From Verrucomicrobiota bacterium (GTDB lineage Bacteria; Verrucomicrobiota; Verrucomicrobiia; Opitutales; Cerasicoccaceae): a stretch of 64,000 bases of DNA. Where the stretch lies: NCBI GenBank assembly GCA_039818205.1, contig JBCBUK010000010.1, forward strand, positions 64,001 to 128,000, read 5' to 3'. Below the pieces are notes generated by a model. It did no database searches. It saw nothing but the letters and a program-made list of their open reading frames with translations, and was not told the origin of the DNA. Position 1 is the first letter of the stretch, and each line of letters opens with the position of its first letter. A program made the position numbers and the translations under genes. Shown here in pieces: positions 8,507 through 35,703 of this stretch.

Positions 8507-9457
8507 TTATCTGCCTGCCTTCAGGCGTCGCAGACCAATTAATATCCAGTTCAGCGCCTCCGCACTCGTGGATGCGTTGAATAGGCGTTGATTCTCCTCG
8601 AGGCTGAGTCGATTCGACTCGCAAAGGCGCTTGATTACTGCGTTTGATTCTGATCCTAGCCTTCCGGCTGCTCGATGGAAATTATCCCAAATGCTTTCCA
8701 AATCAAGTGGTCTAAGATCAGAAGCTGGATCACGTAGCTCTTCGACATGGGTTACCGGATCTTGATAGCACTTAGCTAAATCCCCGTTCAGCTGAAAGTT
8801 GATTTGGCGGGGAATGCCTTCCAGTCTGTCGATCGCATACTCGGTAACGCCTCCAAACAGGCGAGAAAGATAGAGCGGTTTTTTAAGAGCGAGGCTCAAT
8901 AGAATCTCTTCTAGAACGCCCGGGGTCCGTCCCCATGGTGCCGATTGCAGGTTTCCCTCTATCATGTCCCGTCCGCCAAAAGCGATTCGGGCTGTAGATT
9001 CTTCAGTCATCTCGCGACGCATTACGCTAAGCGATACCGCCCGCTGGTAGGTTCCAAGGGCACCATCAGGAAGGTTGGGCGCGCTGGTATCAACGAGGTT
9101 CAGCACGCCCCTAATTTGGCGTTCGCGCCATTCCTCCAAGGGGTTCGCTGACCCATGGTATCGAAAGTTGTGAATTAGAGGATTCTTTCGTGCGTCCTCG
9201 TGGGCAAGAACGGCATCGTGAGCTTCAGCCATCTCATAGAGGGCTAGCATTACGCCATCGGCCCGCCAGTCATGACCGAAACAAACGGCGGCACCATGTG
9301 AGATTAATGTACGAGCGATCTCGAGGACCACCTCGTTCACTTGGTCTGCGCCGTAGCTCCATTTCGAAGGCTCGAGTGGGTTCGAAATGCCAACCGATAC
9401 GATCAGTCCGCCGAGGAGCGGGTCGGTATCGAAGTTTGATATCTGATCGAGACTCAT
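8507..9457 (-). CDS. SLOG superfamily nucleotide-binding protein (SLOG cluster-2-like), standalone
   Basis: GxxVSVGIS, G..V.FGHDWR.DG, SLS.MR..M....ARI..GG, GR.PGVLEE.......KPLYL...FGG motifs typical of conflict-associated SLOG domains. Confidence 0.75.
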   Translation of the reverse strand: MSLDQISNFDTDPLLGGLIVSVGISNPLEPSKWSYGADQVNEVVLEIARTLISHGAAVCFGHDWRADGVMLALYEMAEAHDAVLAHEDARKNPLIHNFRYHGSANPLEEWRERQIRGVLNLVDTSAPNLPDGALGTYQRAVSLSVMRREMTEESTARIAFGGRDMIEGNLQSAPWGRTPGVLEEILLSLALKKPLYLSRLFGGVTEYAIDRLEGIPRQINFQLNGDLAKCYQDPVTHVEELRDPASDLRPLDLESIWDNFHRAAGRLGSESNAVIKRLCESNRLSLEENQRLFNASTSAEALNWILIGLRRLKAGR

Positions 9458-10683
9458 GGCTGCAGCGAGGTTTGCATCACAATTTTCTGTGGAGTCGTGA
9501 GTATAATCGATCCTTGAAACGTATCAATCAAGCCTTTGACTGCTGGTGCAAAGACTCCGGTCAGTGGGGGATCTTGGTGGAGGATCATGTACCGATTGCC
9601 GCTGCCTGGTTGTAGGTCGCGAATCGCATAGGCAATCTGGCTCATTGAAGGTGGGTAAGGAATTACACTGCTCTGATTGAACTTCAGATTTGTTTGTTGC
9701 TGGTAGGCGTGAAAGAACCGTTCAAGTGCTAATCGCTTGATGTTTTCTCGGAACGCCGAAAACAATGCTCGAAACAAGTTGCCATCAGCCAGAGATACAG
9801 TGGGTGCACCGTCGTGGGTTAATCGGTCGGCGCCGCGCTCAAGTTGTTGCCGTATCTCAACGTTAACAAGGGGAACGCCATTGTCTCGAGCCCAGACAAA
9901 CTCTTGCCGACACCATGGGCGGGTGTCGTAGCCGTCAGTCCGAAGAACAACTATTGTTGAATCAGAAATGCCGCGTTTAATCTCGCTTCTCCAATCGTTG
10001 ACGCCCGCAAGATCTTTTGCGTCATACCAGGATGAGAATTCGGTTTGCCGATCGATCAATTGCTGCATTGCCCAAGCCAAGGGAAGTCCATCTTGTTTGG
10101 CATGGCTAAGAAATATCTGCAGCTTTCGACTCCGTCCAGAAGGTCCAGCGATCCCATGAAGCAATAGTCGTCGGGCTTGGCAGAGAGTGTATAGAGCAAA
10201 CCAGACTGTCCGTTCCTCGTTCTCCCCCCAGATGCAACTTCCTTGGCCATTGCTTCGTTTTTCGTCGAGATCTTCGCAACGGATATGTCCATCAATGACA
10301 TTGATGTATCGGGAGTTCAAATCACTCCGGATTTGTTTACCCATGGTCACGATGATTAGACCGTTGTCGGGATCTTTGAGGTTGGCAGCTAGCGGGTCCA
10401 ACCAATCTCGCTTCATCTGTTTGTTCGAATCCTCAGTTACAAAAACAACGAACAGCGAATGCATGGCCTTGTCGAGCAACGCTTGCTGGTCACATAGCGA
10501 GAGTGCTTGTGAGAGCTCCTGAACAGGAACGTCAAGTTTTTCTCCGCTGCGGAGGTAGGCATTTTCGGCAGAACGGTTTCCCTGGATGACATCTTTGATG
10601 CCGTCGAGAAACGGAGCGGCAGACAGGTCGCCGCTATCGCGCACCAGGAAAATTTGTAACGGTGGCCGGGCCAGTGGGTTCAT
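9454..10683 (-). CDS. TIR domain protein (uncharacterised N-terminal domain + TIR + DPPL tail)
   Basis: IFLSHAKQDG, WYD..D, W..EI..GI, Y.TRPWCRQE with catalytic-position Glu; ATG at 10683, 5 nt after upstream stop; ATGA overlap with SLOG gene. Confidence 0.88.
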   Translation of the reverse strand: MNPLARPPLQIFLVRDSGDLSAAPFLDGIKDVIQGNRSAENAYLRSGEKLDVPVQELSQALSLCDQQALLDKAMHSLFVVFVTEDSNKQMKRDWLDPLAANLKDPDNGLIIVTMGKQIRSDLNSRYINVIDGHIRCEDLDEKRSNGQGSCIWGENEERTVWFALYTLCQARRLLLHGIAGPSGRSRKLQIFLSHAKQDGLPLAWAMQQLIDRQTEFSSWYDAKDLAGVNDWRSEIKRGISDSTIVVLRTDGYDTRPWCRQEFVWARDNGVPLVNVEIRQQLERGADRLTHDGAPTVSLADGNLFRALFSAFRENIKRLALERFFHAYQQQTNLKFNQSSVIPYPPSMSQIAYAIRDLQPGSGNRYMILHQDPPLTGVFAPAVKGLIDTFQGSIILTTPQKIVMQTSLQP

Positions 10684-10688
10684 TAGAC

Positions 10689-11843
10689 TTATTTTGCTTC
10701 GTCGATTGAGGTTCCACCAGTTGCCTCTCGGGCAATCTTCTCGAATGCTTTCGAATGCTTGTCGAGGCATGTTGCCAGATCAGTTAGTGCTGTTGGCGCC
10801 GCATTGACGAGACGTCCATGGATTTCTTCGAGTTCATCGATAGCCAATAGTCCGGCTTCGTCGGCGTCAGTAGCCCCGGGCGTTGGTAACAAGCCTCCGA
10901 TTCGCCAAGTGATGTTTCGAATGAGTTCCTGAAGACGTTTTGTGATTGGATCAAAGATCAGGGTATTTGTCTGCCAGCTTGAGCATTGGGCTGAGAACCC
11001 GGCCATTTCAACCGAGAGCAACCAACAGGTCTGGCGATGCTCAAGAGAAGGAGCACCTTTTATGGCAGCATCCCAGCGTTCGAATTCGCCTAGATCTTCT
11101 TCTGAAATATCTGGCTGGGTTCCAGCGAGACTCGCTGATTCGGAAACCATGTTTTCGTAGCCCGGAATGTTTGCGGCATTACCGAGGTTCTTTGCATATT
11201 CAGCTGCGATTGCGCGCATCTTCTCGAGATCCCTGCGGCATATGGCATTGAGCGGCCAGTCGGCTTCACCGAGATTTGTGCCCTCCCAATCCTGCAATCT
11301 CGGGTGCCAACGACTGAGATAGGGGCGAACGGCGTGGTTCAGCATTCGATGACAGATCGATTCCAAGGTAATTGCGGTTTTCTGCGTGTTCGACGGAGTC
11401 GGAGGCATTTCCTTGAGCTCATCACGAACAATTTGGAAAAACTGATACAGAGAATTAAGCGCTTCGCGGATGTTCCCATCTTCATTGTTAAGGGGTTGGA
11501 TAACCGTCCGGGTTGTCATCTCATGGAAAATCCGCCGAGCAGCCGCCCGCTGCGGATTGCCGAGTTGAACCTTGGTGGCACCAAGAATCGGGATATTCAT
11601 CTCAACTTCGCTGACACCAAGAGGCGAGAGCATTTGTCGATAACCCGCTATCAATGGGCCTGCGATAAACGGTAAACTGCCCGCCAACGCGCCTAGAATT
11701 AGTATCATAAATCCGGTACTAACCCACCATTCTGTTTCGGATAGGTCGCCAGACGCAGTGTCGATTACCTTTGTGATTGCGATGAAGAGGGCGACGCCGC
11801 CTCCCAGGGCAAATCCAACAAGAAAACGTTGTATCTTTGACAT
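10689..11843 (-). CDS. Two-TM membrane protein with conserved cytoplasmic helical domain (apparently duplicated)
   Basis: Two N-terminal hydrophobic helices; AARRIFHEMTTR..REALNSLY..F..R..L..LN..VRPYLSRWHP.L..WE pattern. Confidence 0.75.
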   Translation of the reverse strand: MSKIQRFLVGFALGGGVALFIAITKVIDTASGDLSETEWWVSTGFMILILGALAGSLPFIAGPLIAGYRQMLSPLGVSEVEMNIPILGATKVQLGNPQRAAARRIFHEMTTRTVIQPLNNEDGNIREALNSLYQFFQIVRDELKEMPPTPSNTQKTAITLESICHRMLNHAVRPYLSRWHPRLQDWEGTNLGEADWPLNAICRRDLEKMRAIAAEYAKNLGNAANIPGYENMVSESASLAGTQPDISEEDLGEFERWDAAIKGAPSLEHRQTCWLLSVEMAGFSAQCSSWQTNTLIFDPITKRLQELIRNITWRIGGLLPTPGATDADEAGLLAIDELEEIHGRLVNAAPTALTDLATCLDKHSKAFEKIAREATGGTSIDEAK

Positions 11844-12244
11844 CTTAACAAATCTTGGTACCTAGAAGGTGCAATAATGTCACGATCAAAGGTGTTACAA
11901 TAATAAAACGCTAGGACCTAATTCCTAACTATTTGAATTATTAAGCTCAGGTAATTGACATCGATTTGCCTCTGGAAAACATTTAAGTGACTTCGTATTT
12001 CTTGGTAAGAATTGGTCTAATTTTTGCTAAATTATCCCTTACCTCCAAATGCGTGGTCTAGGTGCCGTTGGATGATTTCTAATTTTTAAGGTTAGGCCTT
12101 CTCTGGGCATTTTTCACCAGAATGGGTTTGCTGAGAGCGCCTAGTTTTATCGATCCGGCAAAAATTACCCAAGCCAATCGGAAAAACTTGAATATTTCTT
12201 TACAAATTATACTTACTATCAATTAACCTACTAATACTCCTGCG
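11844..12244. promoter_or_regulatory. AT-rich divergent promoter region of the TIR/SLOG/STAND locus
   Basis: Markedly AT-rich, ORF-free stretch between divergent operons; individual promoter boxes not assigned. Confidence 0.55.
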
Positions 12245-12412
12245 ATGATCTTGGACTCCAGCCATTGTTTAATGCTGATGCCGCCACCACGACTCCCGTT
12301 GGAGTACGGACTCTGTTGGGTGTCGGTTATCCTTGTTCTGGTGGCGTTCATAATGCGCCCGGTGGAATTTCTGGCATCTTTAGAAGCGGAGGACGGGTTA
12401 TCTTTTCGTTAG
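12245..12412 (+). CDS. Possible 55-aa single-TM small protein
   Basis: Hand translation MILDSSHCLMLMPPPRLPLEYGLCWVSVILVLVAFIMRPVEFLASLEAEDGLSFR*. Confidence 0.25.
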   Translation: MILDSSHCLMLMPPPRLPLEYGLCWVSVILVLVAFIMRPVEFLASLEAEDGLSFR

Positions 12413-12455
12413 GAGTATTAAAGGAACAGCCTTCACATATTGATCGAATCTAGCA

Positions 12456-13958
12456 ATGTCCGGGGACACTCCATATAGCGGTGAATCATTCAGGAATGAC
12501 GTTTTCGTTAGTTATTCGCACGGCAAAGAATTGGCTGAAAGCGGCCAATCTCATTTGAAACTGTGGTCGGATGTTCTTATTTCCAATTTAAAGGAATACA
12601 TCAGCGTGCCGCTTAGAAGTGCTGATGTTAAGATATGGAATGATGGTAAACTTCCTCCGAATTCGCCAATAACTGATACGATAAAAGAGGCGGTTGAAGG
12701 CTCAGCGATCCTCGTGGTAATCCTGACTGATTCTTACTTGCGCTCGGATTGGTGTAAGGCTGAGCGGGAATGGTTTGCATCAGAGGTAAGTCGTCGAGGA
12801 GGTGGTTCTGGTTTAGAAAGCGTGTTTGTCATTCGAGCCACAAATATCGAGCATGAGAAGTGGCCTGATTTTTTAAAAGACGAATCAGGCGAGCCGTCGC
12901 TTGGTATCAACTTTTGCGACCGGAAATCAAACTTTCCTTATGGATTTCCCGATCCGAATAAGGCCAAGGATCAGGGAGACTTTTATGCGTCACTGTCCAA
13001 TTTAGGTCCCAGTGTTGCCCGCGCGCTAGAGAAAGTAAAAAGCGAGTTTGAGAAAGCCCGCTCGGCCGCGAAACCAGCTGTCGCCAATAGGCCAATCGTA
13101 CGTACTGTCTATGTCGCGCCGGGTACTGAGGATGTCCGAGGCGCATTGAAGTCGATTCGTGAAAAGTTGACTCAGCGCGGCATCAAGGTAGCGCCTTCTG
13201 AAATGGTCGCGATTGATCAGATTCACGGACAGGTGACCAATGAAGTATTTGGGCAGGCTCGGGCATTTGTGCAATGCTTCGGTTATATGGCTGCGCGGAC
13301 ACCAGAAATGATCAGCCGTGTAGAGCGTCTACACAAGCTTGCTTGTGAACAGAATCTTCCTCGCTTTCTCTGGCGTGATTCGAAGATTGATATTGATCTG
13401 CTCAGTTACGATCTCGAGTACAAAAACTTTATCCAGCGATTAGTTCCGGACATTCAAATGGACATAGATGTTCTGGTAGAAGAGCTTTGCAGTAAACTAC
13501 AAGAAATTCAGCTCCCCGAAGATGGGGGTTTCTCCTCGACGGCTTATATGGAGATACCTTCCGAGGTTTATCATGAGTTTGATCGTTGGCGTAAAGATAT
13601 CCAGGTTCCGGATTGCGTTGTCTTTCCTCTTACACCTCCTCAGAAAGGCGGCATGAGTGAGATCTCCAAAGAGCGGCGCGCCAAGCAGTTGATTTATGAG
13701 GAGTGTAATGTGATCTTGCACCTCTACTGTGTTAAAGGCCAGTTGAAGTGGATGAGGGATTCGATCATAAATTCGGAAAAAGTAAAGACCAGGATTGACT
13801 GCCCTCAGAGTGCGCACCCGACAAATCTTATCGTCGATTATACGGATGAGACCGATACTGAATTGGTCGCTCAAACAATAGGCGTTCCGTTTTGTCGCCG
13901 AAGGGAAGGGGAGGATAGTGCTGCCCTTTTGTCCGCAATCAAGAAAGCGATTCGATGA
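12456..13958 (+). CDS. TIR domain protein (N-terminal TIR plus additional alpha/beta domains)
   Basis: DVFVSYSH, IWND, AV..SAILVVILTDSYLRSDWCKAE with catalytic-position Glu; ATGA overlap with STAND gene. Confidence 0.9.
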   Translation: MSGDTPYSGESFRNDVFVSYSHGKELAESGQSHLKLWSDVLISNLKEYISVPLRSADVKIWNDGKLPPNSPITDTIKEAVEGSAILVVILTDSYLRSDWCKAEREWFASEVSRRGGGSGLESVFVIRATNIEHEKWPDFLKDESGEPSLGINFCDRKSNFPYGFPDPNKAKDQGDFYASLSNLGPSVARALEKVKSEFEKARSAAKPAVANRPIVRTVYVAPGTEDVRGALKSIREKLTQRGIKVAPSEMVAIDQIHGQVTNEVFGQARAFVQCFGYMAARTPEMISRVERLHKLACEQNLPRFLWRDSKIDIDLLSYDLEYKNFIQRLVPDIQMDIDVLVEELCSKLQEIQLPEDGGFSSTAYMEIPSEVYHEFDRWRKDIQVPDCVVFPLTPPQKGGMSEISKERRAKQLIYEECNVILHLYCVKGQLKWMRDSIINSEKVKTRIDCPQSAHPTNLIVDYTDETDTELVAQTIGVPFCRRREGEDSAALLSAIKKAIR

Positions 13959-16900
13959 GTGGTGCGAGCAGCAAGTCTGATGGCGTGCAAGCGTCCGCTG
14001 TAATCCGCCGGAATCCGTATCCAGGGTTGCGACCGTTTCAAGTTGACGAGTGGTCGATATTTTTTGGCCGCGAGCGTATGATTGATGACGTTATCGAGCG
14101 CATGGGTGAATCTCAATATGTGGTCATTCATGGGGCCTCTGGCAGTGGTAAGTCTTCTCTTATTCGTGCTGGCGTGATTGCCCAGTTGCAGCGGGAGCAC
14201 CAGAGCCGAGGTCTTGATTGGCGACCAGCGGTGATGATGCCTGGCAGTTCGCCGATGTGGCATTTTGCCACAGCACTCTTAACCGCGCTTTCTTCTGACG
14301 ATCATGATGAACCTTGGAAGATCGCGCAGACGCGAGTTCGCCTCAGTATGGGTTCTGATGGAGTTGCGGACCTTCTACAGGAAGCGGGCTTTGGTCCGGA
14401 CCAGCGCTTGTTCATTCTCGTTGATCAGTTTGAGGAAATTTTTCGATTCGCCGATGAAGGTGGCGTTGAAGAGGCGACGGAGTTTATTGAGCTTTTGGTT
14501 GACCTTCACCGACATCCTTTGTCCGGGGTCTATCTGGCAATGACCATGCGCTCAGACCATATTGGCGAGTGTTCCCGTTTCTCTGGTCTCTCGGAAGTGG
14601 TCAACAACTGCCAATATTTGGTTCCACCAATGGAGGAACGCGAGTTGATCGAGGCCATATGCCGACCAGCATCAATCGAGTGTGGTCACGTTTCGGAAGG
14701 GCTGGCCCTAAGGCTGATCAAAGACACGCGGCATACTCCGGATCAACTGCCATTGATCCAACACGCACTGTGCTACATGTGGGCTTTGGAAGTGGATGAA
14801 GCGCCAGATCAGAACCCGACTCTTAACCTTGACGACTATGCAAGAGATCAAATCGGCTCAGTTACACATGCTCTTTCGAACCACGCCGATGAGGCATTGA
14901 AGGAGTTGGCTTCAGATGGTCGTCCAACCTTGGACGCGGCGGAGCATGTTTTTCGAGCATTGACGCAGGTAGATAGTTCTGGGCGAACCATTCGGCGGCG
15001 ACTGGGAAGAAAGAAGCTACTTGGTGAAGTTAGTTGTTCTGAGGCAGTTCTAGATCGAGTCATCAAGGTTTTTGCGGCATCCAATCGTACGTTTCTGTTT
15101 CAGGAAAAAGAAAATCCGGAGATGGATCCGAAGGTCGATATTTCCCATGAATCCTTAATTCGCCACTGGGAAAAACTAGAGGACGATTCTATTGATCCCA
15201 AGACTGGACGACCTGGCGGATGGGTGAGTCGGGAAGCTTATGATGGCGCTGTTTGGCACGGGCTGGTTGCGACGGTTACCAGTGCCCCTCGACCATCGGA
15301 AGCCCAGCTTCCAAAGATTGTTTATGAGCGTCGGCAGGAATGGTGGCATTCGCGAAATCCTAATGCCAAATGGGCGCAGCGCCATGGTGGTCATTTCGAT
15401 GAAGTTAAGGAACTACTCAGCCGAAGCCGAAAGAAAATCGAAGATGATGAGCGCCGCCAGCGAGAGACGGAGGAAGCCAAAGAAGCTGCACGCCGGAAAG
15501 CCAAGTTTTTGGCCTGGATCGCGTCGGTTTTCGCAGTAATTGCGATTGGGATGGCGATTTTTGCCGCTAAAAAGAATTTTCAATTGCGGGAGTCGCTTGT
15601 GAACGCTGAGCGCCTCGTAGTAAGTGAGCGAGCGGCGTTGGACGAAGCGAATAGAGCCAAGAATGCCGCGTATGCATCAAAGGACAAAGCGATTAAATCT
15701 GAGGAGATGGCGATCAATGCGTTGCGGAGGCAATGGCAGTTGACATTGGACAAAGCAGACGCGTTTAAGGACGATCCAGTGGTCCGTTCGCTAATCGCGC
15801 TTGAGTTCCTTCCTGACGCCAGTGTCGAGGACGATGATCGTAAGAATTATCCTAGTATTCCTAGAGTAGAACAGGAGTTGAGAGAGGCGCTGAGCGCCGA
15901 AGCTCGGGTAGCGGTGGTCTACGAGGACCAGGAATTTGCTCAGACGATCGAGTCATTGGATTTCAATTATGATGGCAGTCAGATCGCGATGGTGTCCGAT
16001 CGTGGAGAAACCGTGCGAGTTATTGATGCATCGTCCAAGGATACCATCTCGAAAATTGAGGGAGAGTTCCGCGAGTTCGAACAGGTGAAATTTGGGCCGT
16101 TTGGATCCCGCATTGCTGTTACTCGCGATTTGTCTGGGAAATGGAGTATATTCGATGCGAAATCCGGAGTTGAGGAGCAAATGCTAGATTTTGGCCCCGA
16201 TATCGATGCTCTTGCCTGGTCGCCTGATGGTGGCCAAATCGTGACCGGGTCCATCGATGGATCGCTCCGCATTTGGGATGTTGGTAAAGACGTTCCGACA
16301 TTGGATGTTAATGTTTCCAGTATTCCAATTAGTTGGGTCGAGTTTGATTCGACGGGATCCAAGATCGTCGGTGGCCTCTATGACGGAGAATTGTTTTTTT
16401 GGGATATCGAAAAATCTGAGCGACCACAGATAATTGTGTCTGGATCAAGTCGGTTAGTGGCCGGAGCCTTGCTCCCGGATGGAAATTCTATAGTAAGGTT
16501 GTCCGATAAGGGTCAGGTGGATTTGGTCGACCTGGCATCTTCCGAGGTGAAATTGGTTACCAAAATCGATTCGGTTGGTCGCTCACTTGCGGTTGCTCCC
16601 TTTGGGCGTTGGATTGCAATTGGCTGCTCGGATGGTCGGGTTAAGATCGTCGATCTTGATAATACGAATCCAGTCGAAACGACCGATACTCTAGGGCGAG
16701 AAGTTGATGCACTTTCATGGTCTGTGAAGGGAAATTCGATGGCAGCAGGGACCTACGATGGTTCGCTTGCGATAATAAGTTTTTATACTCCAGAAGAGGA
16801 AGTGAAGGGAAAGAACCTGGAGAGCATGACAACCCAAGAACTTGTTGAGTTCGCCCAGGCGTCTCTTCCTTATTGCTTTAGCGAGAATGAACGAAAGCGA

Positions 16901-19900
16901 CTAGGGCTTAGTGAAGCGGTTCCTGATTGGTGCCGTGAAGAGCGTGCCTACCCGTTTGATGCATCCGGTCGAATGGCTCGTGCATTGGGGTTGCTCCCGG
17001 GTTTCCCAAAAAAATCTCACGATCAATTCAATGATGCGCTATTCCTTGCCGGCGATGGACAAAGCCTGGACATGATTCATGCGATTAAGAAAGGGGCCAT
17101 GCTGAGGGCCCTGACTCAGCTTTCGGATGGAGCGAAAAGCCCCTCAGAATTTAACTCGAGAAAGAAGCGCCTTGATGAATTCATTCAGCTGGCAACAGAA
17201 TTGGAGTTAGCCCCGGAATCTCAACTTAAGGACGCTGAGGTCGCTTTTCTGGTTGAATCGTCTCGGAATGTCATGCGGCATGACCGAACGAACGAACCTT
17301 TGAGTAGTAAGTGGTTGGCAGATGCGCGGGCAATTGATCATTCGGGCTCCTTAGAGGCGCGTTGGCGCTTAACGCTTGATGATGCCCGAAATTTAGCGAT
17401 AGAGGAGGAGACGGACGAAGACGCCGAAGCTGGGGTGGATCCGATCGTAGAAATTCTCATTGCTCTTGAGTTCCTACCAGCTGAAAATGCAGACATTGAT
17501 TCAGTGCCCGAGATTGTAGAATCTCTCCAAAGATCACTGCTCAACCTAAGGAACCAGCCAAGCATTGAGCGAAACATTGTCCACTCATTTGATGATGAAA
17601 TTGAAATGCTCGATATTGACGCCGATGGTCGAGCTGTTGTGCATTTTCAAGACCATGATGTCTTGTATGGGAAATCGATTGATAGTGGCCAAAGCGGGGA
17701 ATACTTTAAGCTATCAGTTGGGAATTTGAGTGCGATAGAGTTTAGTCCGAATAATTCACGGCTGCTCGTCTCTTCTTATGATGGCTTTATCGAAGTGCTG
17801 GATCCGAATAGTGGCGATCGACAGATAGATCCGATTGAAGCCCATGCGAAGGTCGTTGATGCTGTTTGGCTTTCTGACACGGAGATCGTCTACGCAACTG
17901 ATGAGGCCGTTTTCATCCGAAACCTTGATGACGTTAACCGTGTCGAAAAGCTTGAGGTTTTTGAAGAGCCAGTTTTCTTAAACGTACACCCGGAATCGAA
18001 AAAGTTACTAGTTGCTTCATCTGGCATGGCAACTGTCTGGGAATTGGATGGCGCCCCGTTTTACTCAAATTTTTCCCCTGAAGGATACTTAGGCTTTCTA
18101 CATGCTGAGTGGGCTGATGATGGAAATTTCCTTATTACGGTCGACGATGGTGACAGATTTGACATATGGCAGAAGCCAGACAACAAGCGCAGAGACTCGG
18201 GCTATGTATTAAGAGAAGTTCCGTTTGAACAGAGATTTTGGGAAGTCAACGCGATCGATGTGTCACGGGATGGACGCTGGTTGGTTATTGGAAGCGAAGA
18301 TTATTATCTCGATTTCTATGATCTGAAAGAACAACGGTTTGTCGCTGAGGCGAAAGTGGATGACGCTATAGTTTTTTTAGAATGGTCAGACTCCGGTGAA
18401 AGTGTGAACTGTTCTACCAGCGATGGAAGTATCATTCGATTTGACTTCTTCACGGTTGGGCAAAACTACCAACATCAGATTGAAGAACTTGTCGCTGGTC
18501 AAAACGTAGCGTCGGATCGCTCAGGCAAGAAAGGTCCGGGTTCAAGCCTTGTCGATCTGGCACGTAATGTCGTTCCTTACTGTTTCGGAGAGTGGGACCG
18601 AGAAAGCTTGCTTCTCGATGAGGAAATTCCTGATTGGTGTATTACTTGGAAGAAGCCACCGTTTGACTTTAGGGGTAGAGTGGATAGGGCATCCGAACTT
18701 ATGAATGGAGGAGAATCGGAAGTGGCCGATGCCTTCCGAATTTTCAAGGAATTGGAGATGTCACATCCCGAATCATTTGAAGCGATTCAGAAAGAGCGAC
18801 TCGCCTCTGTGCAGAGTCGATTGTCACAGTTGTCCGGGGATGCAGATAGCTATATTCGTTTCCAAGAGAAACTTTCAAAATTGGAGGGTTTCACTGAGCA
18901 GGTTAATGCCGTGCATCCTGAAATGGAGCTCGATTTTGATTACTATCGCTTCGAGCTCGCCGAAGGTGCGGCAAAGCAGTTACTGGAATACGATCAGATC
19001 GAGGGGGCTCGACAAGCCTTTGCAATAGCACTTGGCTATCGGCCGGAGCTAAAGGATCGGATCGTGTTATCTCACGCCGAAGCGGCCCTATCTCGAGGTG
19101 AGCTTGGCGTTGCGTTGTTACTCGCGCTTGAGGTTGCTGATTCAAATCCGGATGCGAAAGAATTCCTGGCGCGTTACCTATCATTGGACGGGCCGACTCA
19201 GCGTTGGCCTATCTCAGAATCTCCAATCATTGGTATCAGCGTTGATCCTGAGAATGGAGCTTACCTTGCGTCTGGTGGTTCTGAGGTTTATCGTTGGAAC
19301 CCAGAGAGTGAAGATTCCGAATTGTTACTAGGGGACGTTTCTGACGCTGGTCGAATCGCGTTGAGCCCCGATGGTAGTCGATTTATCGTGGGGAGTAGCC
19401 TCCTTCTTCCGCGTATCTGGGATTTCCCATCGGGTGATACCTCGGCGGTGCTGGAAACAAACGCTGGAGATAGTATCGGCGCTGCTTGGTCAAGTAATGG
19501 TGAACTCATTGCGCTGTCGGACGGTTTTGATGGCGGAACGTATATCTTTAACTCGGAGTCGGGAATTGCCGAAGCAACCCTCAAGGGGGCGAATACGAGC
19601 GACTACGGTGTTTGCTTTTCGCCAGTTGATGAGAAACTCGTTTTGACCGGAGGTAGCGGGTTGCTTCAGATTTGGGACATTTCAAGTGCTAGTCCGATAT
19701 TCACGTTAGAAGTCGACGAAAACATAGAGATTTACGACGTGGACTGGTCCGTTGATGGTGATCGAATTGTATATTGCGGTGAAAATGGCACTGCCGGTCT
19801 TCTAATTAGAGACGAAAACGGCAATTGGAAGAACACCCACGAGTTCGATCATAACTCTGAAGTCGTTTTTTCAGTAGCTTTTGATTCGACTGGCGAGCTT

Positions 19901-20215
19901 TTCGCTACTGGTAGTGAGAATGGAATTATGGTTTGGGATACAACGAGCGGAGATTTGATTCGGCGATTGGTCGATACTCAGCTTGATCCGGATGATGAAG
20001 AAGCGGTTCCGATTGTCGTAAAATGGGCGTCGGATGGTAACATCTATGCGGGAATGGCCAGTGGAAATCTGTTAGTGTTTAATGGGCACGGACTGGATTC
20101 TACTGATGAGGCAGAAAGTGTTGTTGAACGTGCTCGCGATCGTGTTGAACGGGAACTGACAGAAGAGGAGCGTTGGCTCTACAACCTTACCGAAAAACAG
20201 CCAGGTAAGTCTTGA
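13955..20215 (+). CDS. nSTAND1-type STAND NTPase with TM helix and three WD40 beta-propeller modules (NLR-like)
   Basis: NPYPGLRPF..FFGRE, Walker A GASGSGKSS, Walker B ILVDQFEEIF, MRSD, LPLIQHAL, ISHESLIRHW; TM at about 15506-15568; repeated WSPDG/FSP..LV.GS.DG...WD. Confidence 0.92.
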   Translation: MSGASSKSDGVQASAVIRRNPYPGLRPFQVDEWSIFFGRERMIDDVIERMGESQYVVIHGASGSGKSSLIRAGVIAQLQREHQSRGLDWRPAVMMPGSSPMWHFATALLTALSSDDHDEPWKIAQTRVRLSMGSDGVADLLQEAGFGPDQRLFILVDQFEEIFRFADEGGVEEATEFIELLVDLHRHPLSGVYLAMTMRSDHIGECSRFSGLSEVVNNCQYLVPPMEERELIEAICRPASIECGHVSEGLALRLIKDTRHTPDQLPLIQHALCYMWALEVDEAPDQNPTLNLDDYARDQIGSVTHALSNHADEALKELASDGRPTLDAAEHVFRALTQVDSSGRTIRRRLGRKKLLGEVSCSEAVLDRVIKVFAASNRTFLFQEKENPEMDPKVDISHESLIRHWEKLEDDSIDPKTGRPGGWVSREAYDGAVWHGLVATVTSAPRPSEAQLPKIVYERRQEWWHSRNPNAKWAQRHGGHFDEVKELLSRSRKKIEDDERRQRETEEAKEAARRKAKFLAWIASVFAVIAIGMAIFAAKKNFQLRESLVNAERLVVSERAALDEANRAKNAAYASKDKAIKSEEMAINALRRQWQLTLDKADAFKDDPVVRSLIALEFLPDASVEDDDRKNYPSIPRVEQELREALSAEARVAVVYEDQEFAQTIESLDFNYDGSQIAMVSDRGETVRVIDASSKDTISKIEGEFREFEQVKFGPFGSRIAVTRDLSGKWSIFDAKSGVEEQMLDFGPDIDALAWSPDGGQIVTGSIDGSLRIWDVGKDVPTLDVNVSSIPISWVEFDSTGSKIVGGLYDGELFFWDIEKSERPQIIVSGSSRLVAGALLPDGNSIVRLSDKGQVDLVDLASSEVKLVTKIDSVGRSLAVAPFGRWIAIGCSDGRVKIVDLDNTNPVETTDTLGREVDALSWSVKGNSMAAGTYDGSLAIISFYTPEEEVKGKNLESMTTQELVEFAQASLPYCFSENERKRLGLSEAVPDWCREERAYPFDASGRMARALGLLPGFPKKSHDQFNDALFLAGDGQSLDMIHAIKKGAMLRALTQLSDGAKSPSEFNSRKKRLDEFIQLATELELAPESQLKDAEVAFLVESSRNVMRHDRTNEPLSSKWLADARAIDHSGSLEARWRLTLDDARNLAIEEETDEDAEAGVDPIVEILIALEFLPAENADIDSVPEIVESLQRSLLNLRNQPSIERNIVHSFDDEIEMLDIDADGRAVVHFQDHDVLYGKSIDSGQSGEYFKLSVGNLSAIEFSPNNSRLLVSSYDGFIEVLDPNSGDRQIDPIEAHAKVVDAVWLSDTEIVYATDEAVFIRNLDDVNRVEKLEVFEEPVFLNVHPESKKLLVASSGMATVWELDGAPFYSNFSPEGYLGFLHAEWADDGNFLITVDDGDRFDIWQKPDNKRRDSGYVLREVPFEQRFWEVNAIDVSRDGRWLVIGSEDYYLDFYDLKEQRFVAEAKVDDAIVFLEWSDSGESVNCSTSDGSIIRFDFFTVGQNYQHQIEELVAGQNVASDRSGKKGPGSSLVDLARNVVPYCFGEWDRESLLLDEEIPDWCITWKKPPFDFRGRVDRASELMNGGESEVADAFRIFKELEMSHPESFEAIQKERLASVQSRLSQLSGDADSYIRFQEKLSKLEGFTEQVNAVHPEMELDFDYYRFELAEGAAKQLLEYDQIEGARQAFAIALGYRPELKDRIVLSHAEAALSRGELGVALLLALEVADSNPDAKEFLARYLSLDGPTQRWPISESPIIGISVDPENGAYLASGGSEVYRWNPESEDSELLLGDVSDAGRIALSPDGSRFIVGSSLLLPRIWDFPSGDTSAVLETNAGDSIGAAWSSNGELIALSDGFDGGTYIFNSESGIAEATLKGANTSDYGVCFSPVDEKLVLTGGSGLLQIWDISSASPIFTLEVDENIEIYDVDWSVDGDRIVYCGENGTAGLLIRDENGNWKNTHEFDHNSEVVFSVAFDSTGELFATGSENGIMVWDTTSGDLIRRLVDTQLDPDDEEAVPIVVKWASDGNIYAGMASGNLLVFNGHGLDSTDEAESVVERARDRVERELTEEERWLYNLTEKQPGKS

Positions 20216-20257
20216 AGACTTTTAGCCTGGCTGTCTAAAGGGATCTGATCGGGCTGG

Positions 20258-21658
20258 TTACCCGAAAGTCGTGATCTTTTGCGATGAACGAAGATTTCCA
20301 GTGCCAACCTTCTGTTCCTTTTTGAGCTCCCGTCCGGTTGTGGTTAGAATATTGCGCATCTGGTCGGGGTCGACTGGCTTTGAGATGTAATAATTCATAC
20401 CGGCTTTGATGAAGCGCTCGCGGTCACCAGCGTTGGCAAAAGCGGTTGTGGCGACAATGGGAATGCTTTTGTTCTCATCACCACAAGCACCCTTTCGGAT
20501 CGCCGCGGTTGCTTCCAACCCGTCGACGTTCGGCATCATGATGTCCATGAAGATGAGATTGTAATTGTCTTTCTTGAGCTGCTCTTGCGCCTTTAGACCG
20601 TCGGTAGCGAAATCGGCGCGATGGCCCATCTTCTCCAGCATAGCCTTCATGGTCAGGCAGTTGAGAGCGTTGTCGTCGACGACCAAGACATTGAGCTCGA
20701 AAATATTTTGCGAAAGCGAAGTCTTGAGTAGCGAAGCGGCACTCAGGTTCTGGCCAACCTTGTTTTTCGAAGTGACGAACGCTTCGGCCACAAACTGAAT
20801 GTTGAATCGCGATCCGCCGACCTCACTCGGTTCATAGTGGATGCTTCCGCCAAGGCCAGATTCAACCATAAACTTGGAGATCGATAGGCCAAGACCAGTG
20901 CCTTCGTATTTGCGGGTCTTCGATTCGACCAGTTGATGAAATGGTTTGAAGAGTTGATCCGCCTTCTCTGGGTCAATCCCAATCCCTGTATCGGCAACTT
21001 GGAGGGCGATCTCAAACATCTGTTTTGAGCCCTTGTTGGAATGGTGTTGGAAAAACACCTCCATCTGGATGTGGCCTTTGTCGGTGTATTTGATCGCGTT
21101 GGAAACCAGATTCAAGAGTGCTTGGCGCAGACAGTTACGGTCACAGAAAACCTGGAGCTCCTTATCGGAATCCTGGTTAAACTCGAAAATGATGTCTTTG
21201 CGGGAGGCTTCTTCTTTGAACAACGAATGAATTTCTTCCGTTACCTCAGACAGGCTAAACCGCATTGGGTTGATCTCGAATTGGCCCGCATTGATCTTGG
21301 TATAGTCGAGAACGTTGGTCAAAATGGTCAACAAGGCTTCGGTGCTCTTGCTGATCGTCTTGAGGTACTCTTCTTGGTCGGGGCGAGGATCGGATGAAAG
21401 CAGAACTTCGGACAAGCCATTCAGACAGTTCAGGGGCGTCCGGATTTCATGACTCATGGTCGCCAAAAAGAGCTCCTTGGTTTGAGCGGTTTCTTCGGCG
21501 GATACCGCTTTGTCGCGGGCGTCGTCAATTTGTTCGTTCAACCGTTCATTCTTGTACCGTAAATCCGATTTGCCGCGGTTGCCCGCGCGGAATGCTAACA
21601 GTGTTAGGATGAGACCGGCGATGACGAAGACGACTTCCTTACTATTGAGGAATTCCAT
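20258..21658 (-). CDS. Hybrid sensor histidine kinase/response regulator
   Basis: N-terminal TM, FLATMSHEIRTPLN H-box, NLVSNAIKYT, DTGIG, GTGLGL, receiver VVDDN..FMDIMMP..KP. Confidence 0.95.
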   Translation of the reverse strand: MEFLNSKEVVFVIAGLILTLLAFRAGNRGKSDLRYKNERLNEQIDDARDKAVSAEETAQTKELFLATMSHEIRTPLNCLNGLSEVLLSSDPRPDQEEYLKTISKSTEALLTILTNVLDYTKINAGQFEINPMRFSLSEVTEEIHSLFKEEASRKDIIFEFNQDSDKELQVFCDRNCLRQALLNLVSNAIKYTDKGHIQMEVFFQHHSNKGSKQMFEIALQVADTGIGIDPEKADQLFKPFHQLVESKTRKYEGTGLGLSISKFMVESGLGGSIHYEPSEVGGSRFNIQFVAEAFVTSKNKVGQNLSAASLLKTSLSQNIFELNVLVVDDNALNCLTMKAMLEKMGHRADFATDGLKAQEQLKKDNYNLIFMDIMMPNVDGLEATAAIRKGACGDENKSIPIVATTAFANAGDRERFIKAGMNYYISKPVDPDQMRNILTTTGRELKKEQKVGTGNLRSSQKITTFG

Positions 21659-21944: not shown

Positions 21945-22718
21945 ATGAATATACCAAGCTACTCTTTGGCCGTTCTCGGCCTGTTCTTTTGGGCGCTCGT
22001 TGGTGCTGCCCAGGACAAACCCGCTGAAAATGCAGCACCAAAAGATCCGTATGCAATCGGATTGATTCAACGTGCTGCTTCGTATCTTGCTGGGCAAGAA
22101 CACTTTAGTGTCCAATCTGAGATTTGGGACGATATGTTCGTCGAAGGGAGTCTCTTACAGTTTGACCGCACGGTAGAAGTGGTGGTGCGTCGTCCGGACC
22201 GCATCCGCATGGATATTTCAACGACGATTCCGACCCGGAGCATCTTTTACGATGGGGACACGGTTACCATGGTCGACCAGCGCACCAACCAATATGGGGT
22301 CACGAAGGGCGCAGGAAGCATCGACGAAACGATCACGATGATTGACTCAAAGTATGACGTCGAGTTTCCCATGGAGGATTTGTTGTTCAGCAAGCCGTTT
22401 GGAAATGCTGCCGAGACGGCACTTGGGGCTCAATATCTGGGTAAAACCGTGATTCTTGGCGTCGAGTGCGACCACGTGGCGTTTCAGCACCAAGTTCTCG
22501 ACTGGCAGGCTTGGATTGCCACGGGCCCGGTTCCCACACTGCGGAAAGTGGTAATTGATTACAAGCGGCCAACCAACAACCCACGCACGACGGCTATTTT
22601 TTCCGACTGGGATTTTACGACGCCCATGCCGGATTTCGTTTTTGAATTCACTCCAATGGCCTACCAGGACGAGATCGAGGTGTTGCCTCAAACCTCTCCG
22701 ATGGCTCCAAGGAAATAA
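21945..22718 (+). CDS. Periplasmic DUF2092-family protein
   Basis: Signal peptide; V.RPD..R, YDG..T, G..CDH.AF....DWQ.WI..G..P..RK.VI pattern. Confidence 0.8.
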   Translation: MNIPSYSLAVLGLFFWALVGAAQDKPAENAAPKDPYAIGLIQRAASYLAGQEHFSVQSEIWDDMFVEGSLLQFDRTVEVVVRRPDRIRMDISTTIPTRSIFYDGDTVTMVDQRTNQYGVTKGAGSIDETITMIDSKYDVEFPMEDLLFSKPFGNAAETALGAQYLGKTVILGVECDHVAFQHQVLDWQAWIATGPVPTLRKVVIDYKRPTNNPRTTAIFSDWDFTTPMPDFVFEFTPMAYQDEIEVLPQTSPMAPRK

Positions 22719-22748
22719 AACCGACCGCTAACCCTCTATTATTAAGTC

Positions 22749-23468
22749 ATGAATATGTCTCTATTTAAGATCACGATATTGGCTGCGATGGTGGCCTTGG
22801 TTCCTGTTGCCGAAATGCAAGCCCGGGGGGTTGGCCGAAGTGTCGGTGGCCTCGGCGGCGGCGGCGGCGGTGGTGGTGGATTTGGCGGTGGCGGTGGTCT
22901 CCGCGGTGGCGGAGGAGGCGGAGGCGCCTTTGAACGAAGCGGTGGCGGCATCGGCGGTGGCGGAGAGGCCAATCGCGATTTCAACCGCAATAACAACAAC
23001 AACAACGCCAACATCAACCGCAACAACATTAACACGAACGTTAATCGCAACAATGCGAACATTAACGTGAACGGTGGCGACACCCGGGTCAACGTGAACA
23101 AGAACGTGGACGTCAACGTAAACGGTCGTTACTATCACAACGGCTGGCACGATGACAATTGGGGCGCGTTTGCGGCCGGTGCGGTAACGGGTTTGGCTAT
23201 TGGTGCCATCGTTTCGCGACCTCCGGCTGGATACGTACCGGTTTATGTCGGGCCGACTCCATACTACTATTACGGTGGCGTTTACTATCAGTCGGGATCG
23301 AGTGGCTATGTCGTTGTTGCGCCTCCGGTAGGTGTGATTGTTCCGACTCTCCCTCCGGGTTCCACGACCACCAACGTCAACGGTGTGACTTATTTCGTTT
23401 TCAACAACACGTATTATCTGCCGGTTATGGTGAATGGCGTGACTCAGTACAAGGTCGTGACCGTTTAG
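22749..23468 (+). CDS. Secreted low-complexity protein: Gly-rich, Asn-rich, then Tyr/Val/Pro-rich (DUF6515-like) C-terminus
   Basis: Signal peptide; poly-G; NRNNNNNNANINRNNIN; YYYYGGVYY..YVVVAPPVG..V..LP. Confidence 0.8.
   Translation: MNMSLFKITILAAMVALVPVAEMQARGVGRSVGGLGGGGGGGGGFGGGGGLRGGGGGGGAFERSGGGIGGGGEANRDFNRNNNNNNANINRNNINTNVNRNNANINVNGGDTRVNVNKNVDVNVNGRYYHNGWHDDNWGAFAAGAVTGLAIGAIVSRPPAGYVPVYVGPTPYYYYGGVYYQSGSSGYVVVAPPVGVIVPTLPPGSTTTNVNGVTYFVFNNTYYLPVMVNGVTQYKVVTV
22853..23120 (+). repeat. Coding low-complexity tracts (GGC/GGT)n and (AAC)n
   Basis: Direct inspection; the tracts encode the Gly and Asn runs. Confidence 0.8.
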
Positions 23469-31705: not shown

Positions 31706-32337
31706 ATCGGACTTTCTCGGAACTGTGTTCTGAGGCGATCGTGGAACGCGCAAATATGCCTTGGATACATCTGGACAATTTCGAAGTGAGACGACGGTGA
31801 ATTGATAGCTTTGAATCACAAGCGCGTAACCACCTATATCGGTTCTGCGCAATTGGAGATAAAATTTACGCCATTGACCATTGGCTGAGTCCCGGAAATT
31901 TGTTAAGCTATAAGTCTCCCCTGTTCGTCAGTCGATGGCATCCGTTTGCCTGACGAATTTTGACTCCCCCATCTCATTATTACTGAATTTATCATGTAAA
32001 CTAGTTACCCAATTCGGTTTGGGTAATCAGACGCTTTGGCTGCATCGGATTCCGAAACGTATCTCTCCTGGCAACCCTTGATCTGATTCTCCAGGCCTGA
32101 CCGCCATCCCACTCCCTCTCCCATAGCGAGAGCCCTCTGCGGCTTGAGCATCTTATACCGGTAAGCATATGCGAACCGGCTCTGCCTACGTGTGCTTGTT
32201 GATATCAGTGTCGTGTTGGGCATGGGAGTAGAGGCGAGAATCGGACTCGGTCAAATCAGCTCGATGCTGATGTATCACCGATGCTGGTCTGCAAACCCAC
32301 TTACACCTCCAAAGAAATCATCACTACCAATAAATCT

Positions 32338-35300: not shown

Positions 35301-35703
35301 AACAACTCCATTCAATGACGCTAATCTGAAAGTTGAACCGAACTTCCGCACATCTTACTTAAAGTTTGATGTCAATGGAGTTGGAACAACGGTTACTGGA
35401 TCGAAGTTGGTTCTCCAATCGACTGAGGCGGGTAACGGAACGATTCGAGTATTCCAGGGCAATAGTAATCTCGGCTGGACTGAGGTAACTTTGACGGCTG
35501 CAACTGCGCCAGCCCAAGGTGCTGAACTCGGAACGGTTACTGGCAATGTCGCTAACGGTAGCACTATCGAGATAGACTTGGGCACTTCGATCGGAAACGG
35601 AGAGATTACCTTGGTTATCACCATGGACGGCGGCGGCAACGACGTCTGGTTCTCCTCTTCAGAAGGGGCGAATGCGCCCCGGTTGGAGGTAACCTTTCAA
35701 TAG
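32338..35703 (+). CDS. Secreted modular glycan-active protein: DUF5060 Ig-like + TIM-barrel GH-like + 'collagen-binding' domain + 3 tandem repeats + DNRLRE/CBM96-like domain
   Basis: Signal peptide; NPFT.YRLNV.F.H, VPGYYAADG, W.V.F.P...G.W.Y; NDEQG; WG..MAGGAG.EYY; V.WFDPR.GG; P..DAY..G..SYLKF..SSE. Confidence 0.82.
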   Translation: MKKLINRVMRAQAIAGAIVALGLCSLGSSEASAQSAAENTPTAGVYGETAGANTYRMWHKVTVAFAGPNTGENANPNPFTNYRLNVTFTHPASGQSIVVPGYYAADGNSGETSATSGNIWRVHFRPFETGTWNYSASFRTGNNVVTNTNANAGSPTSFNGATGSFNVVATNKTGRDFRAHGRLEYVGKHHLRHAGSGKYFFKYGADSPENPIAYVGFDNTPLSPTDNRSGVRHVFAPHIPDWNTGDPQWKGTQGRGLIGALNYLASVGAHSWSTLVYSIDGGDDRRIFPWTAQNTKVRFDCSKLDQWAIAFSHANNKGLNCTIKLAEEENHRDLTGNNLHLQYREMVARFGHNLGVQWVISEEFGGFDGTDAAEVADIRARGDLLASLDPWDNNLTTHTGPGDGAQNGVYGAIYGRPAYTGASMQISNASTQANKVFNRTLVIRNASANNGQPWVVSNDEQGPANQGVRVQSATDRKHVLWGNFMAGGAGVEYYINIDGANLDANTEDYRVISTMWTWSDYMVNDFITGNNIPFWDMANADNLTTTNNNHCLAKVGDTYVVHLYNGGTTSLNLGGQTGDFEVKWFDPRNGGALQNGSVTTVTGGGNRALGSAPNNSGSDWAVLVRRSGGTPPGNDSLSCSTLPSSISNSGSVDVSINYEAAQGRDIVIALWDSGFIANQRISVPIGSGVATATLNLSGLNLPAGSNYSFRALLWETGQDWGTAQPLSNCGVVPVTLTDGTPPPPLEDSLNCATLPASIPNTGLVNVTIDYEAVQGRDIVVALWNSGWLAANRVAVPAGTGTATVSVDLSSLNLPAGSNYSFRALMWQTGETWGVPAGAVPLANCGVVPVTLTDGTPPPPPGEDTLNCSSLPATVAPSANANISIDFEATQQRDVVVAVWTTAGQWVAANRVTVAAGTGTATVPLNLSSVTPGNYYFRAYLWNVGENWGVPAGAAPLSSCNDIPFTLSTSGGGGGTVVETPTQDAYLQGTTPFNDANLKVEPNFRTSYLKFDVNGVGTTVTGSKLVLQSTEAGNGTIRVFQGNSNLGWTEVTLTAATAPAQGAELGTVTGNVANGSTIEIDLGTSIGNGEITLVITMDGGGNDVWFSSSEGANAPRLEVTFQ
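34240..35238 (+). repeat. Three tandem ~105-110-aa domain repeats (starts 34240, 34576, 34924)
   Basis: D.L.C..LP.....I.(Y/F)EA.Q.RD.V.A.W...NY.FRA..W..G..WG...L..C, separated by poly-Pro linkers. Confidence 0.9.

What the first reader, a model, noticed from the sequence alone, without database searches (positions are those of the whole stretch)
15780..20215. Whole sensor module of the STAND protein is triplicated
Seen: the unit [LxALE cap - WD40 propeller - closing cap] occurs three times. Opening caps are LIALEFLP (~15791), LIALEFLP (~17456) and LLALEVA (~19118). Closing caps are PYCFSENERKRLGL..VPDWC..YPFD (~16868), PYCFGEWDRESLLL..IPDWC..PPFD (~18575) and RELTEEERWLYNL (~20150). Helical linkers lie between copies and the propellers are highly diverged. 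All lie C-terminal to the single TM helix, on the opposite side from the ATPase. Inference: a transmembrane receptor with three different ligand surfaces, possibly sensing periplasmic or envelope cues.
Basis: partly seen in the sequence, partly recalled or inferred. Interest (0 to 1): 0.72.

Follow-up and report, generated by a model that had tools for sequence, protein, structure and literature searches.

The report
Membrane NLR-like receptor, three capped propellers
A marine bacterium encodes an immune-type ATP switch that crosses the inner membrane and carries three separate, capped propeller-shaped sensor units outside; its closest relatives carry two, so this is a rare extra-copy variant of a catalogued but untested receptor-plus-TIR-enzyme gene pair.

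Summary
The 2086-aa protein (13955-20215) is nSTAND1 NTPase, one TM helix, a stalk and three capped seven-bladed WD40 propellers joined by helical linkers. All cap motifs lie where stated, and profiles built only from homologues find all three modules. They are not three equal copies. Twelve distinct relatives have two modules (A-linker-B); this protein is A-A'-B, from one extra duplication of module A plus linker, and it was the only three-module form among 285 sequences examined. N-in/C-out topology is well supported family-wide but untested. This gene pair is already listed in the Kaur et al. 2021 source tables, and this scan met it before on other genomes. Three different ligands is unproven: the propellers diverge in core as well as surface, and in some relatives the two modules are 59-72% identical. 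Likely mechanism: periplasmic sensing, STAND oligomerisation, then NAD+ cleavage by the TIR partner. New variant of a known kind; moderate interest.

The parts
12456..13958 (+). Partner gene, 500 aa: N-terminal TIR with catalytic Glu103, DUF4062/DrHyd-like middle domain, third alpha/beta domain; stop overlaps the STAND start (ATGA)
   Evidence: Pfam TIR_2 E 5.5e-9; three alpha/beta domains in AF2 model, pLDDT 82.6; DUF4062 hit in 30 of 74 aligned members but not in this one; Glu in 72 of 74; adjacent in 126 of 143 loci
13955..20215 (+). STAND receptor gene, 2086 aa (P0001)
   Evidence: Single ORF; only nSTAND1 match over the cut-off in the genome
14015..15184 (+). nSTAND1 NTPase, residues 21-410, Walker A and B intact, no N-terminal effector
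   Evidence: PF20703 E 9.5e-81; both motifs in 74 of 74 aligned members
15506..15568 (+). Single predicted TM helix, residues 518-538, basic residues on the N-terminal side
   Evidence: Hydropathy 2.49; conserved in 231 of 246 sequences
15575..15754 (+). Predicted coiled-coil stalk, residues 541-600
   Evidence: Read from the Ala/Glu/Lys-rich sequence; length varies among homologues; not modelled
15773..16960 (+). Module 1 (type A): opening cap 607-647, WD40 propeller about 655-945, closing cap 958-1002 with Cys974/Cys993
   Evidence: Cap profiles 46.1 and 47.3 bits; WD40 families; slot-1 profile 234 bits vs slot-2 157
16967..17359 (+). Helical linker 1
   Evidence: Matches linkers of P0008, P0121, P0002 at z about 10
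17348..18667 (+). Module 2 (extra type A copy): W-helix and opening cap 1132-1200, seven-blade propeller 1202-1500, closing cap 1530-1571 with Cys1543/Cys1562
   Evidence: Caps 18.4 and 38.9 bits; 28 strands in model; slot-1 profile 118 vs slot-2 88 bits; sister to module 1 in quick tree, SH-aLRT 96, long-branch warning
18677..19069 (+). Helical (TPR-like) linker 2
   Evidence: All-helical in model; matches P0008 and P0002 linkers at z 8.5-10
19004..20185 (+). Module 3 (type B, terminal): type-2 opening cap, seven-blade propeller 1749-2043, shortened closing cap 2053-2077 without cysteines
   Evidence: Caps 32.1 and 9.3 bits; 28 strands in model; slot-2 profile 162 vs slot-1 119 bits
8507..11843 (-). 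Neighbouring divergent three-gene operon (unknown 384-aa protein, TIR protein, SLOG cluster2 protein): same island, probably a separate system
   Evidence: Pfam TIR_2 and LD_cluster2; homologues in only 2 of 160 STAND loci (L046, L122)

Best explanation
A two-gene, NLR-like conflict system on a horizontally acquired island. The large protein is a type II single-pass inner-membrane receptor: nSTAND1 NTPase in the cytoplasm, then a stalk and a chain of self-contained capped seven-bladed propellers in the periplasm. The subfamily ground plan is A-linker-B; one internal duplication of [A + linker] (about 555 aa, 1665 nt) gave A-A'-B, and the copies then diverged to 19-23% identity. Proposed working (all inferred): a foreign or damage cue in the periplasm binds or clusters the propellers; the change passes down stalk and TM helix; the NTPase exchanges nucleotide and oligomerises; this clusters the separately encoded TIR partner, whose TIR domain cleaves NAD+ and arrests or kills the cell. 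The extra module most likely widens or strengthens sensing. Shown by computation: domain layout, module boundaries, duplication history, gene pairing, intact catalytic motifs. Inferred: topology, binding of the partner, defence role, ligands.
For: Layout and modules. Two closing caps in 14 of 285 sequences held (12 distinct), three only in P0001. Module 2 carries the type-A opening cap, the preceding W-helix (score 84, best of 500 shuffles 57) and the internal-type closing cap. Topology: TM in 231 of 246, positive-inside in 222 of 231. Among 30 hand-picked homologues, tails include peptidoglycan-binding (2), PA14, laminin-G and PPC domains (1 each). Closing-cap cysteines are both present in 25 and both absent in 4 of 29 modules, never single. 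Partner: adjacent in 126 of 143 loci; catalytic Glu in 72 of 74. Complex prediction: weak support, score 0.41 vs best control 0.00; that mark was reached by 116 of 157 solved and 2 of 215 mismatched pairs, but at 0.60 or under by only 18 solved pairs and both mismatches; runs agree in at least 65% of contacts, partner pLDDT at least 70. Island: no match in 15 of 15 family genomes; GC3 0.47 vs 0.59-0.67 in three housekeeping genes; four congeners have other DNA after lpdA; a second TIR/SLOG operon lies beside it.
Against: No member is experimentally characterised in the papers searched. PADLOC gives no hit near significance for the STAND protein (best E 0.0014) and only weak ThsB/TIR hits for the partner. 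DsbA, DsbB and VKOR were not found in this 99.97% complete genome, so the cap disulfide may not form here. The single-module protein in L131 keeps only the first cap cysteine. The propellers have lost most WD40 GH/WD signatures, and this partner departs from family consensus at three conserved positions of its middle domain, which could mean decay. How a periplasmic sensor could switch a STAND NTPase across a membrane is unknown; the classical fold-back autoinhibition described for Apaf-1 is impossible in this topology. The tree is a quick one with long branches.
Confidence: 0.55

Rival explanations
1. Same receptor and partner, but the third module adds no new specificity: the modules give avidity for one repeating ligand or reach across the periplasm, or the extra copy is a neutral, decaying duplicate.
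For: Modules within one protein are 72% (P0008), 59% (P0121) and 43% (P0004) identical and are sisters in the tree for P0008 and P0004. Many homologues share one presumed top-face signature in both slots. Module 2 sits on one of the longest branches and matches consensus at 0 of 14 surface and 6 of 21 core positions. P0002 amplified the linker helices instead of a propeller.
Against: Module 2 kept an open frame, both caps and both cysteines, and models as a complete seven-blade propeller. Other relatives also carry very different modules (18-33% identity).
Confidence: 0.25
2. A non-immune envelope signalling device: the TIR partner makes a nucleotide second messenger, read for instance by the neighbouring SLOG protein, to report envelope state.
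For: A SLOG cluster2 gene and a second TIR gene lie beside it. Some Bacteroidota relatives sit behind a multi-TM protein instead of a TIR gene (rows). TIR domains of Thoeris make signals rather than deplete NAD+ (10.64898/2025.12.03.692087, passages).
Against: The SLOG/TIR operon has homologues in only 2 of 160 related loci. Patchy island distribution and freely swapped sensor tails fit conflict systems better.
Confidence: 0.12
3. The hydrophobic helix does not span the membrane; the protein is a cytoplasmic or peripheral Apaf-1-like NLR whose propellers fold back on the NTPase and sense cytoplasmic phage proteins.
For: Characterised bacterial STANDs sense intracellular phage proteins (PMC13581612, abstract). 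About 1500 residues would have to be exported behind one signal anchor. No canonical disulfide machinery was found. FGE/FGS tails, seen in 2 of 30 homologues, are treated as intracellular sensors in PMC8195603 (passages).
Against: A hydrophobic helix with positive-inside bias is kept at about 35% NTPase identity across many phyla. Peptidoglycan-binding and other exported-type domains occur behind it. Paired cysteines.
Confidence: 0.08

Closest known systems
[quoted passage not shown]
   Same: Same two-gene layout, listed for Verrucomicrobia, Planctomycetes, Bacteroidetes, Acidobacteria and others: 461 occurrences of nSTAND1+TM and 103 of TIR+DrHyd in that file.
   Different: The main text names nSTAND1 once and the passages seen do not discuss this pair or its topology. 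The table has no BetaPropeller+TPR+BetaPropeller string, though one row has two adjacent propellers plus TPRs. Capped modules and their copy number are not resolved there.
Avs / bacterial NLR-related STAND pattern-recognition receptors (PMC13581612; bNACHT, 10.1101/2022.07.19.500537)
   Same: STAND NTPase plus C-terminal repeat sensor, WD40 propellers among the sensor types; TIR or DUF4062 NADase effectors occur.
   Different: Characterised members carry the effector at their own N-terminus and sense phage proteins inside the cell. Here the effector is a separate gene and a TM helix separates NTPase and sensor. No PADLOC or NCBIfam Avs match.
TIR-ParA systems, receptor-like subtype, and PCTM (10.64898/2026.10.19.760177)
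   Same: Upstream gene with an active TIR plus inactive TIR-like domain, followed by a type II single-TM NTPase with a variable extracytoplasmic sensor (section 25).
   Different: The switch there is ParA; this protein has none (nSTAND1 starts at residue 21). FxsC N-terminal model scores 24 bits against a cut-off of 130.
Apaf-1 (tandem WD40 propellers on a STAND NTPase)
   Same: STAND plus several propellers; Apaf-1 chains are among the Foldseek propeller hits.
   Different: Here each propeller is separately capped and spaced by about 130-250 helical residues, and lies across a predicted membrane helix; TM-scores to all hits are about 0.28 of the query.
Thoeris type III (TIR proteins with a SLOG effector) - for the neighbouring operon only
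   Same: TIR protein next to a SLOG protein.
   Different: ThcB4 model scores 27.7 bits against a cut-off of 220; not linked to the STAND pair in other loci.

Membership tests
nSTAND1 clade of STAND NTPases | PF20703 above the curated cut-off | tested here: met
   272.8 bits vs 27.1
nSTAND1 clade of STAND NTPases | Intact Walker A and Walker B motifs | tested here: met
   Both present in this protein and in 74 of 74 aligned members
[quoted passage not shown] | Upstream adjacent gene with N-terminal TIR | tested here: met
   12456-13958 overlaps the STAND start; TIR_2 37 bits vs cut-off 28
[quoted passage not shown] | DrHyd/DUF4062-like second domain in the partner | tested here: inconclusive
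   DUF4062 hits 30 of 74 aligned members, not this protein itself; family profile hits KpSwz at E 0.018 over that region; alpha/beta domain in model. Equating DrHyd with DUF4062 is my inference.
[quoted passage not shown] | Effector-less nSTAND1, one TM segment, beta-propeller tail | tested here: met
   (TM by hydropathy only)
Avs / bNACHT antiviral STANDs | Effector domain fused at the N-terminus | tested here: not met
   NTPase begins at residue 21
Avs / bNACHT antiviral STANDs | Match to Avs family models | tested here: not met
   None in PADLOC 2023 or NCBIfam 20.0
Avs / bNACHT antiviral STANDs | Phage protection through binding of a phage protein | not testable with these tools
   Needs experiment
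TIR-ParA receptor-like systems | ParA NTPase as cytoplasmic switch | tested here: not met
   No ParA family among the listed Pfam hits; no room before nSTAND1
TIR-ParA receptor-like systems | Upstream active TIR of FxsC type | tested here: inconclusive
   TIR with catalytic Glu present; FxsC_Nterm 24.2 bits vs 130
Type II single-pass membrane receptor | Experimental N-in/C-out topology | not testable with these tools
   Only hydropathy, charge bias and domain context were tested

The most novel reading that the evidence does not exclude
The capped propeller is a self-contained periplasmic receptor cassette, latched by a cysteine pair, that this subfamily copies, homogenises, diversifies or swaps as a whole unit. 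This protein then wires three different outside-the-cytoplasm specificities to one NLR-type switch and a docked TIR NADase: a bacterial surface immune receptor that detects invaders in the periplasm before or during entry.
Probability: 0.25. Interest if true: 0.72.

Novelty: new variant of a known kind. Interest (0 to 1): 0.42.

Why it matters
The bacterial STAND receptors characterised in the papers I read sense phage proteins inside the cell. A membrane-spanning version with a separate TIR effector is widespread and catalogued, but none of those papers tests it. The two- and three-module subfamily gives clean module boundaries and a natural series (one, two, three modules; near-identical or very different; second module swapped), so single modules can be cut out for ligand fishing, swaps and deletions. 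The triplication itself is a single-lineage elaboration; its value is as a handle on how these receptors gain specificity.

Tried and rejected
BLASTP self-comparison of the whole protein returned only the diagonal; the repeats needed cut modules and profiles. DNA repeat search found just one 23-nt, 83% pair at the opening caps, so the duplication is old and not a collapsed repeat. A first locus scan with the single protein found nothing. Word-based search with the P0008 junction returned 3 proteins, 1 new relative. The junction profile found 7 proteins in 1.84 billion representatives, none with three modules except this one; the profile had only 5 rows, so more may exist. No match among 400 genomes of the phylum. 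Direct linker 1 vs linker 2 similarity is not significant (z 2.7). Fold searches gave only generic propeller or Rossmann-like hits; no solved nSTAND1 relative by sequence, only P-loop matches. No phage record matched the TIR partner. No RNA holder listed. Promoter scan at chance level. Atlas search left the 384-aa ORF unnamed. The careful tree did not finish. Rejected: three equal copies; a link between the SLOG operon and the STAND pair as one conserved system; misassembly. Cap-to-cap packing and the Cys-Cys distance could not be measured, as model coordinates are not returned.
Full report
Observation. The finding lies in one ORF, 13955-20215 (+), 2086 aa. Pfam places nSTAND1 at residues 21-410 (E 9.5e-81) and WD40-type families behind it. 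One hydrophobic helix spans 518-538. All six cap motifs are at the stated coordinates. Copies 1 and 2 match directly (closing caps 23 of 48 identical, z 22.8; opening caps z 8.9); copy 3 does not by pairwise score. I built cap profiles from homologues only. They hit the closing cap three times (47.3, 38.9, 9.3 bits), a type-1 opening cap at copies 1 and 2, and a type-2 opening cap at copy 3; 300 shuffles of the protein reached at most 4.1 bits. AlphaFold2 on residues 1150-2086 (14-row alignment) gave two blocks of 28 strands, each between cap helices, separated by helices only; pLDDT 78.6, pTM 0.45, so domain folds are credible and their relative placement is not. Module 1 was not folded. One contig of run X1, which may be the source of this DNA, runs from 14618 to 21500 with a single synonymous difference.

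What the repeat is. A search with residues 1-660 listed 120 proteins of 1147-3651 aa. The closest (about 50% identical in that part) have two capped modules joined by a helical linker. Among 285 sequences held, the closing-cap profile at 9 bits or more found none in 262, one in 8, two in 14 (12 distinct; many were profile seeds) and three only here. I chose that threshold after seeing the 9.3-bit score of copy 3. Module 2 has the type-1 opening cap, the W-helix before it (score 84, best of 500 shuffles 57) and the internal-type closing cap, and scores better on a slot-1 than a slot-2 profile (118 vs 88 bits). Module 3 does the opposite (119 vs 162). A quick tree joins modules 1 and 2 (SH-aLRT 96) with a long-branch warning. 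Opening caps are 1665 and 1662 nt apart. Both linkers match linkers of homologues (z up to 10.4). So A-linker-B became A-A'-B by one old duplication. The unit is plastic in relatives: P0002 has extra linker helices, and P0003 replaces module B by another domain that I read as PPC-like from the sequence, without a listed Pfam hit. The form is rare: 7 hits in 1.84 billion representatives with a five-row junction profile, none in 400 genomes of the phylum.

Three ligands? The window modules are 19-23% identical. At 14 positions that I take as top-face residues from recalled WD40 structure, they share 1, 1 and 0. They match the homologue consensus at 3, 0 and 4 of 14, but also at only 8, 6 and 10 of 21 core positions. 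Divergence is general, so diversification and relaxed constraint cannot be told apart. In P0008, P0121 and P0004 the two modules are 72, 59 and 43% identical, in the other eight pairs 18-33%. The family thus shows both homogenised and diverged pairs.

Topology. Of 280 sequences held, 246 could be scored; 231 have a helix of hydropathy 1.8 or more 60-260 residues after the conserved end-of-NTPase motif, against 3 of 280 in a control segment, and 222 of 231 have more K/R on the NTPase side (the set holds kin and a few duplicates). Among 30 homologues picked for unusual tails, peptidoglycan-binding domains occur in 2, PA14, laminin-G, PPC and PDZ in 1 each, FGE in 2. The closing-cap cysteines are both present in 25 of 29 modules and both absent in 4. 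Against a disulfide: L131 keeps only one, and DsbA, DsbB and VKOR were not found in this genome. Omp85 is present.

Partner and context. The gene 12456-13958 overlaps the STAND start. It has a TIR domain and models as three alpha/beta domains. Of 160 related loci (the best 80 of each of two capped scans), 143 had 1 kb upstream and 126 of those carry a homologue directly upstream; the profile used was built from these loci. In 74 aligned partners, TIR_2 hits 70 and DUF4062 30; the TIR glutamate is kept in 72. A Gln is kept in 69 at the place where I expect, by recall, the DUF4062 catalytic Glu; this protein has Leu there. The middle domain is therefore probably inactive (inference). Complex prediction gave weak support: 0.41 vs best control 0.00; the mark was reached by 116 of 157 solved and 2 of 215 mismatched pairs, but at 0.60 or under by only 18 solved pairs and both mismatches; runs agree in at least 65% of contacts, partner pLDDT at least 70. 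The STAND gene was not found in 15 of 15 family genomes; 2 of 45 further genomes of the order gave weak matches. Four congeners have unrelated DNA after lpdA, and GC3 is 0.47 against 0.59-0.67. The divergent operon (unknown, TIR, SLOG cluster2) has homologues in only 2 of 160 loci and is probably a co-resident system.

Mechanism. Most likely a periplasm-facing NLR-like receptor whose activation clusters a cytoplasmic TIR NADase (0.55). Layout, duplication and pairing are shown by computation; topology, docking, NAD+ cleavage, trigger and defence are inferred. Rivals: extra module for avidity, reach or nothing (0.25); envelope second-messenger signalling (0.12); cytoplasmic Apaf-1-like sensor (0.08).

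Literature. [quoted passage not shown] PMC13581612: abstract, sections 5 and 15, passages; its supplementary tables, unread, may include this clade. 10.64898/2026.10.19.760177: passages and section 25; its supplements are closed and may show related layouts. Passages only: PMC7159879, 10.1101/2022.07.19.500537 (says TM-bearing NACHTs likely sense membrane or periplasmic signals), 10.1101/2023.09.22.558884 (22), 10.64898/2026.05.01.722283 (71), 10.64898/2026.09.04.749371 (105), PMC11350192, 10.64898/2025.12.03.692087 (90). Eight searches turned up no description of the capped module or its copy number; subscription journals are not covered. Earlier notes of this scan describe the same gene pair on other genomes; they are not independent support, and one led me to the published tables.

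Verdict. Observation confirmed with the A-A'-B correction; interpretation partly supported. New variant of a known, untested kind. Interest 0.42.

Noticed in passing
window 8507-11843 (-): Three overlapping genes: 384-aa protein with a hydrophobic N-terminus and no family hit, 438-aa TIR protein, 316-aa SLOG cluster2 protein; Thoeris type III-like in layout but far below the ThcB4 cut-off. In L122 the TIR and SLOG homologues are fused in one 710-aa ORF.
   Followed up: partly
P0008, P0121 (database proteins): The two propellers within one protein are 72% and 59% identical while their opening caps stay of different types, suggesting gene conversion between modules.
   Followed up: partly
P0002 residues about 1020-1340: The helical linker unit is repeated about three times without a propeller between, and both closing caps have lost both cysteines.
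   Followed up: partly
P0003 residues about 1080-1454: Second propeller module replaced by two similar beta-rich domains that look PPC-like by eye.
   Followed up: no
L015:14644-20425 and L043:14409-21902: Two Candidatus Marithrix loci hold further TIR-partner homologues downstream of the matched STAND gene, apparently arrays of this gene pair.
   Followed up: no
L064:1554-4724, L162:399-3563: In some loci without an adjacent TIR gene (L064 is Bacteroidota) a multi-TM protein of about 1055 aa lies directly upstream of the STAND gene.
   Followed up: no
genome G000: No DsbA, DsbB or VKOR match in a 99.97% complete diderm genome; disulfide formation, if any, must use other proteins.
   Followed up: partly
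window 58367-63637 (+): 1756-aa protein combining Ig-like, PKD, a propeller-like region, di-haem cytochrome c peroxidase-like and PA14 domains.
   Followed up: no
window 32281-35703 (+): 1140-aa protein with DUF5060, collagen-binding-like and CBM96 domains, probably a secreted polysaccharide-active enzyme.
   Followed up: no
window 21945-23468 (+): DUF2092 gene followed by a Gly/Asn-rich DUF6515 gene.
   Followed up: no
window 11844-12455: AT-rich 610-nt gap between the divergent operons; run X1 contigs break at 12138-12210 and 14559-14618.
   Followed up: partly
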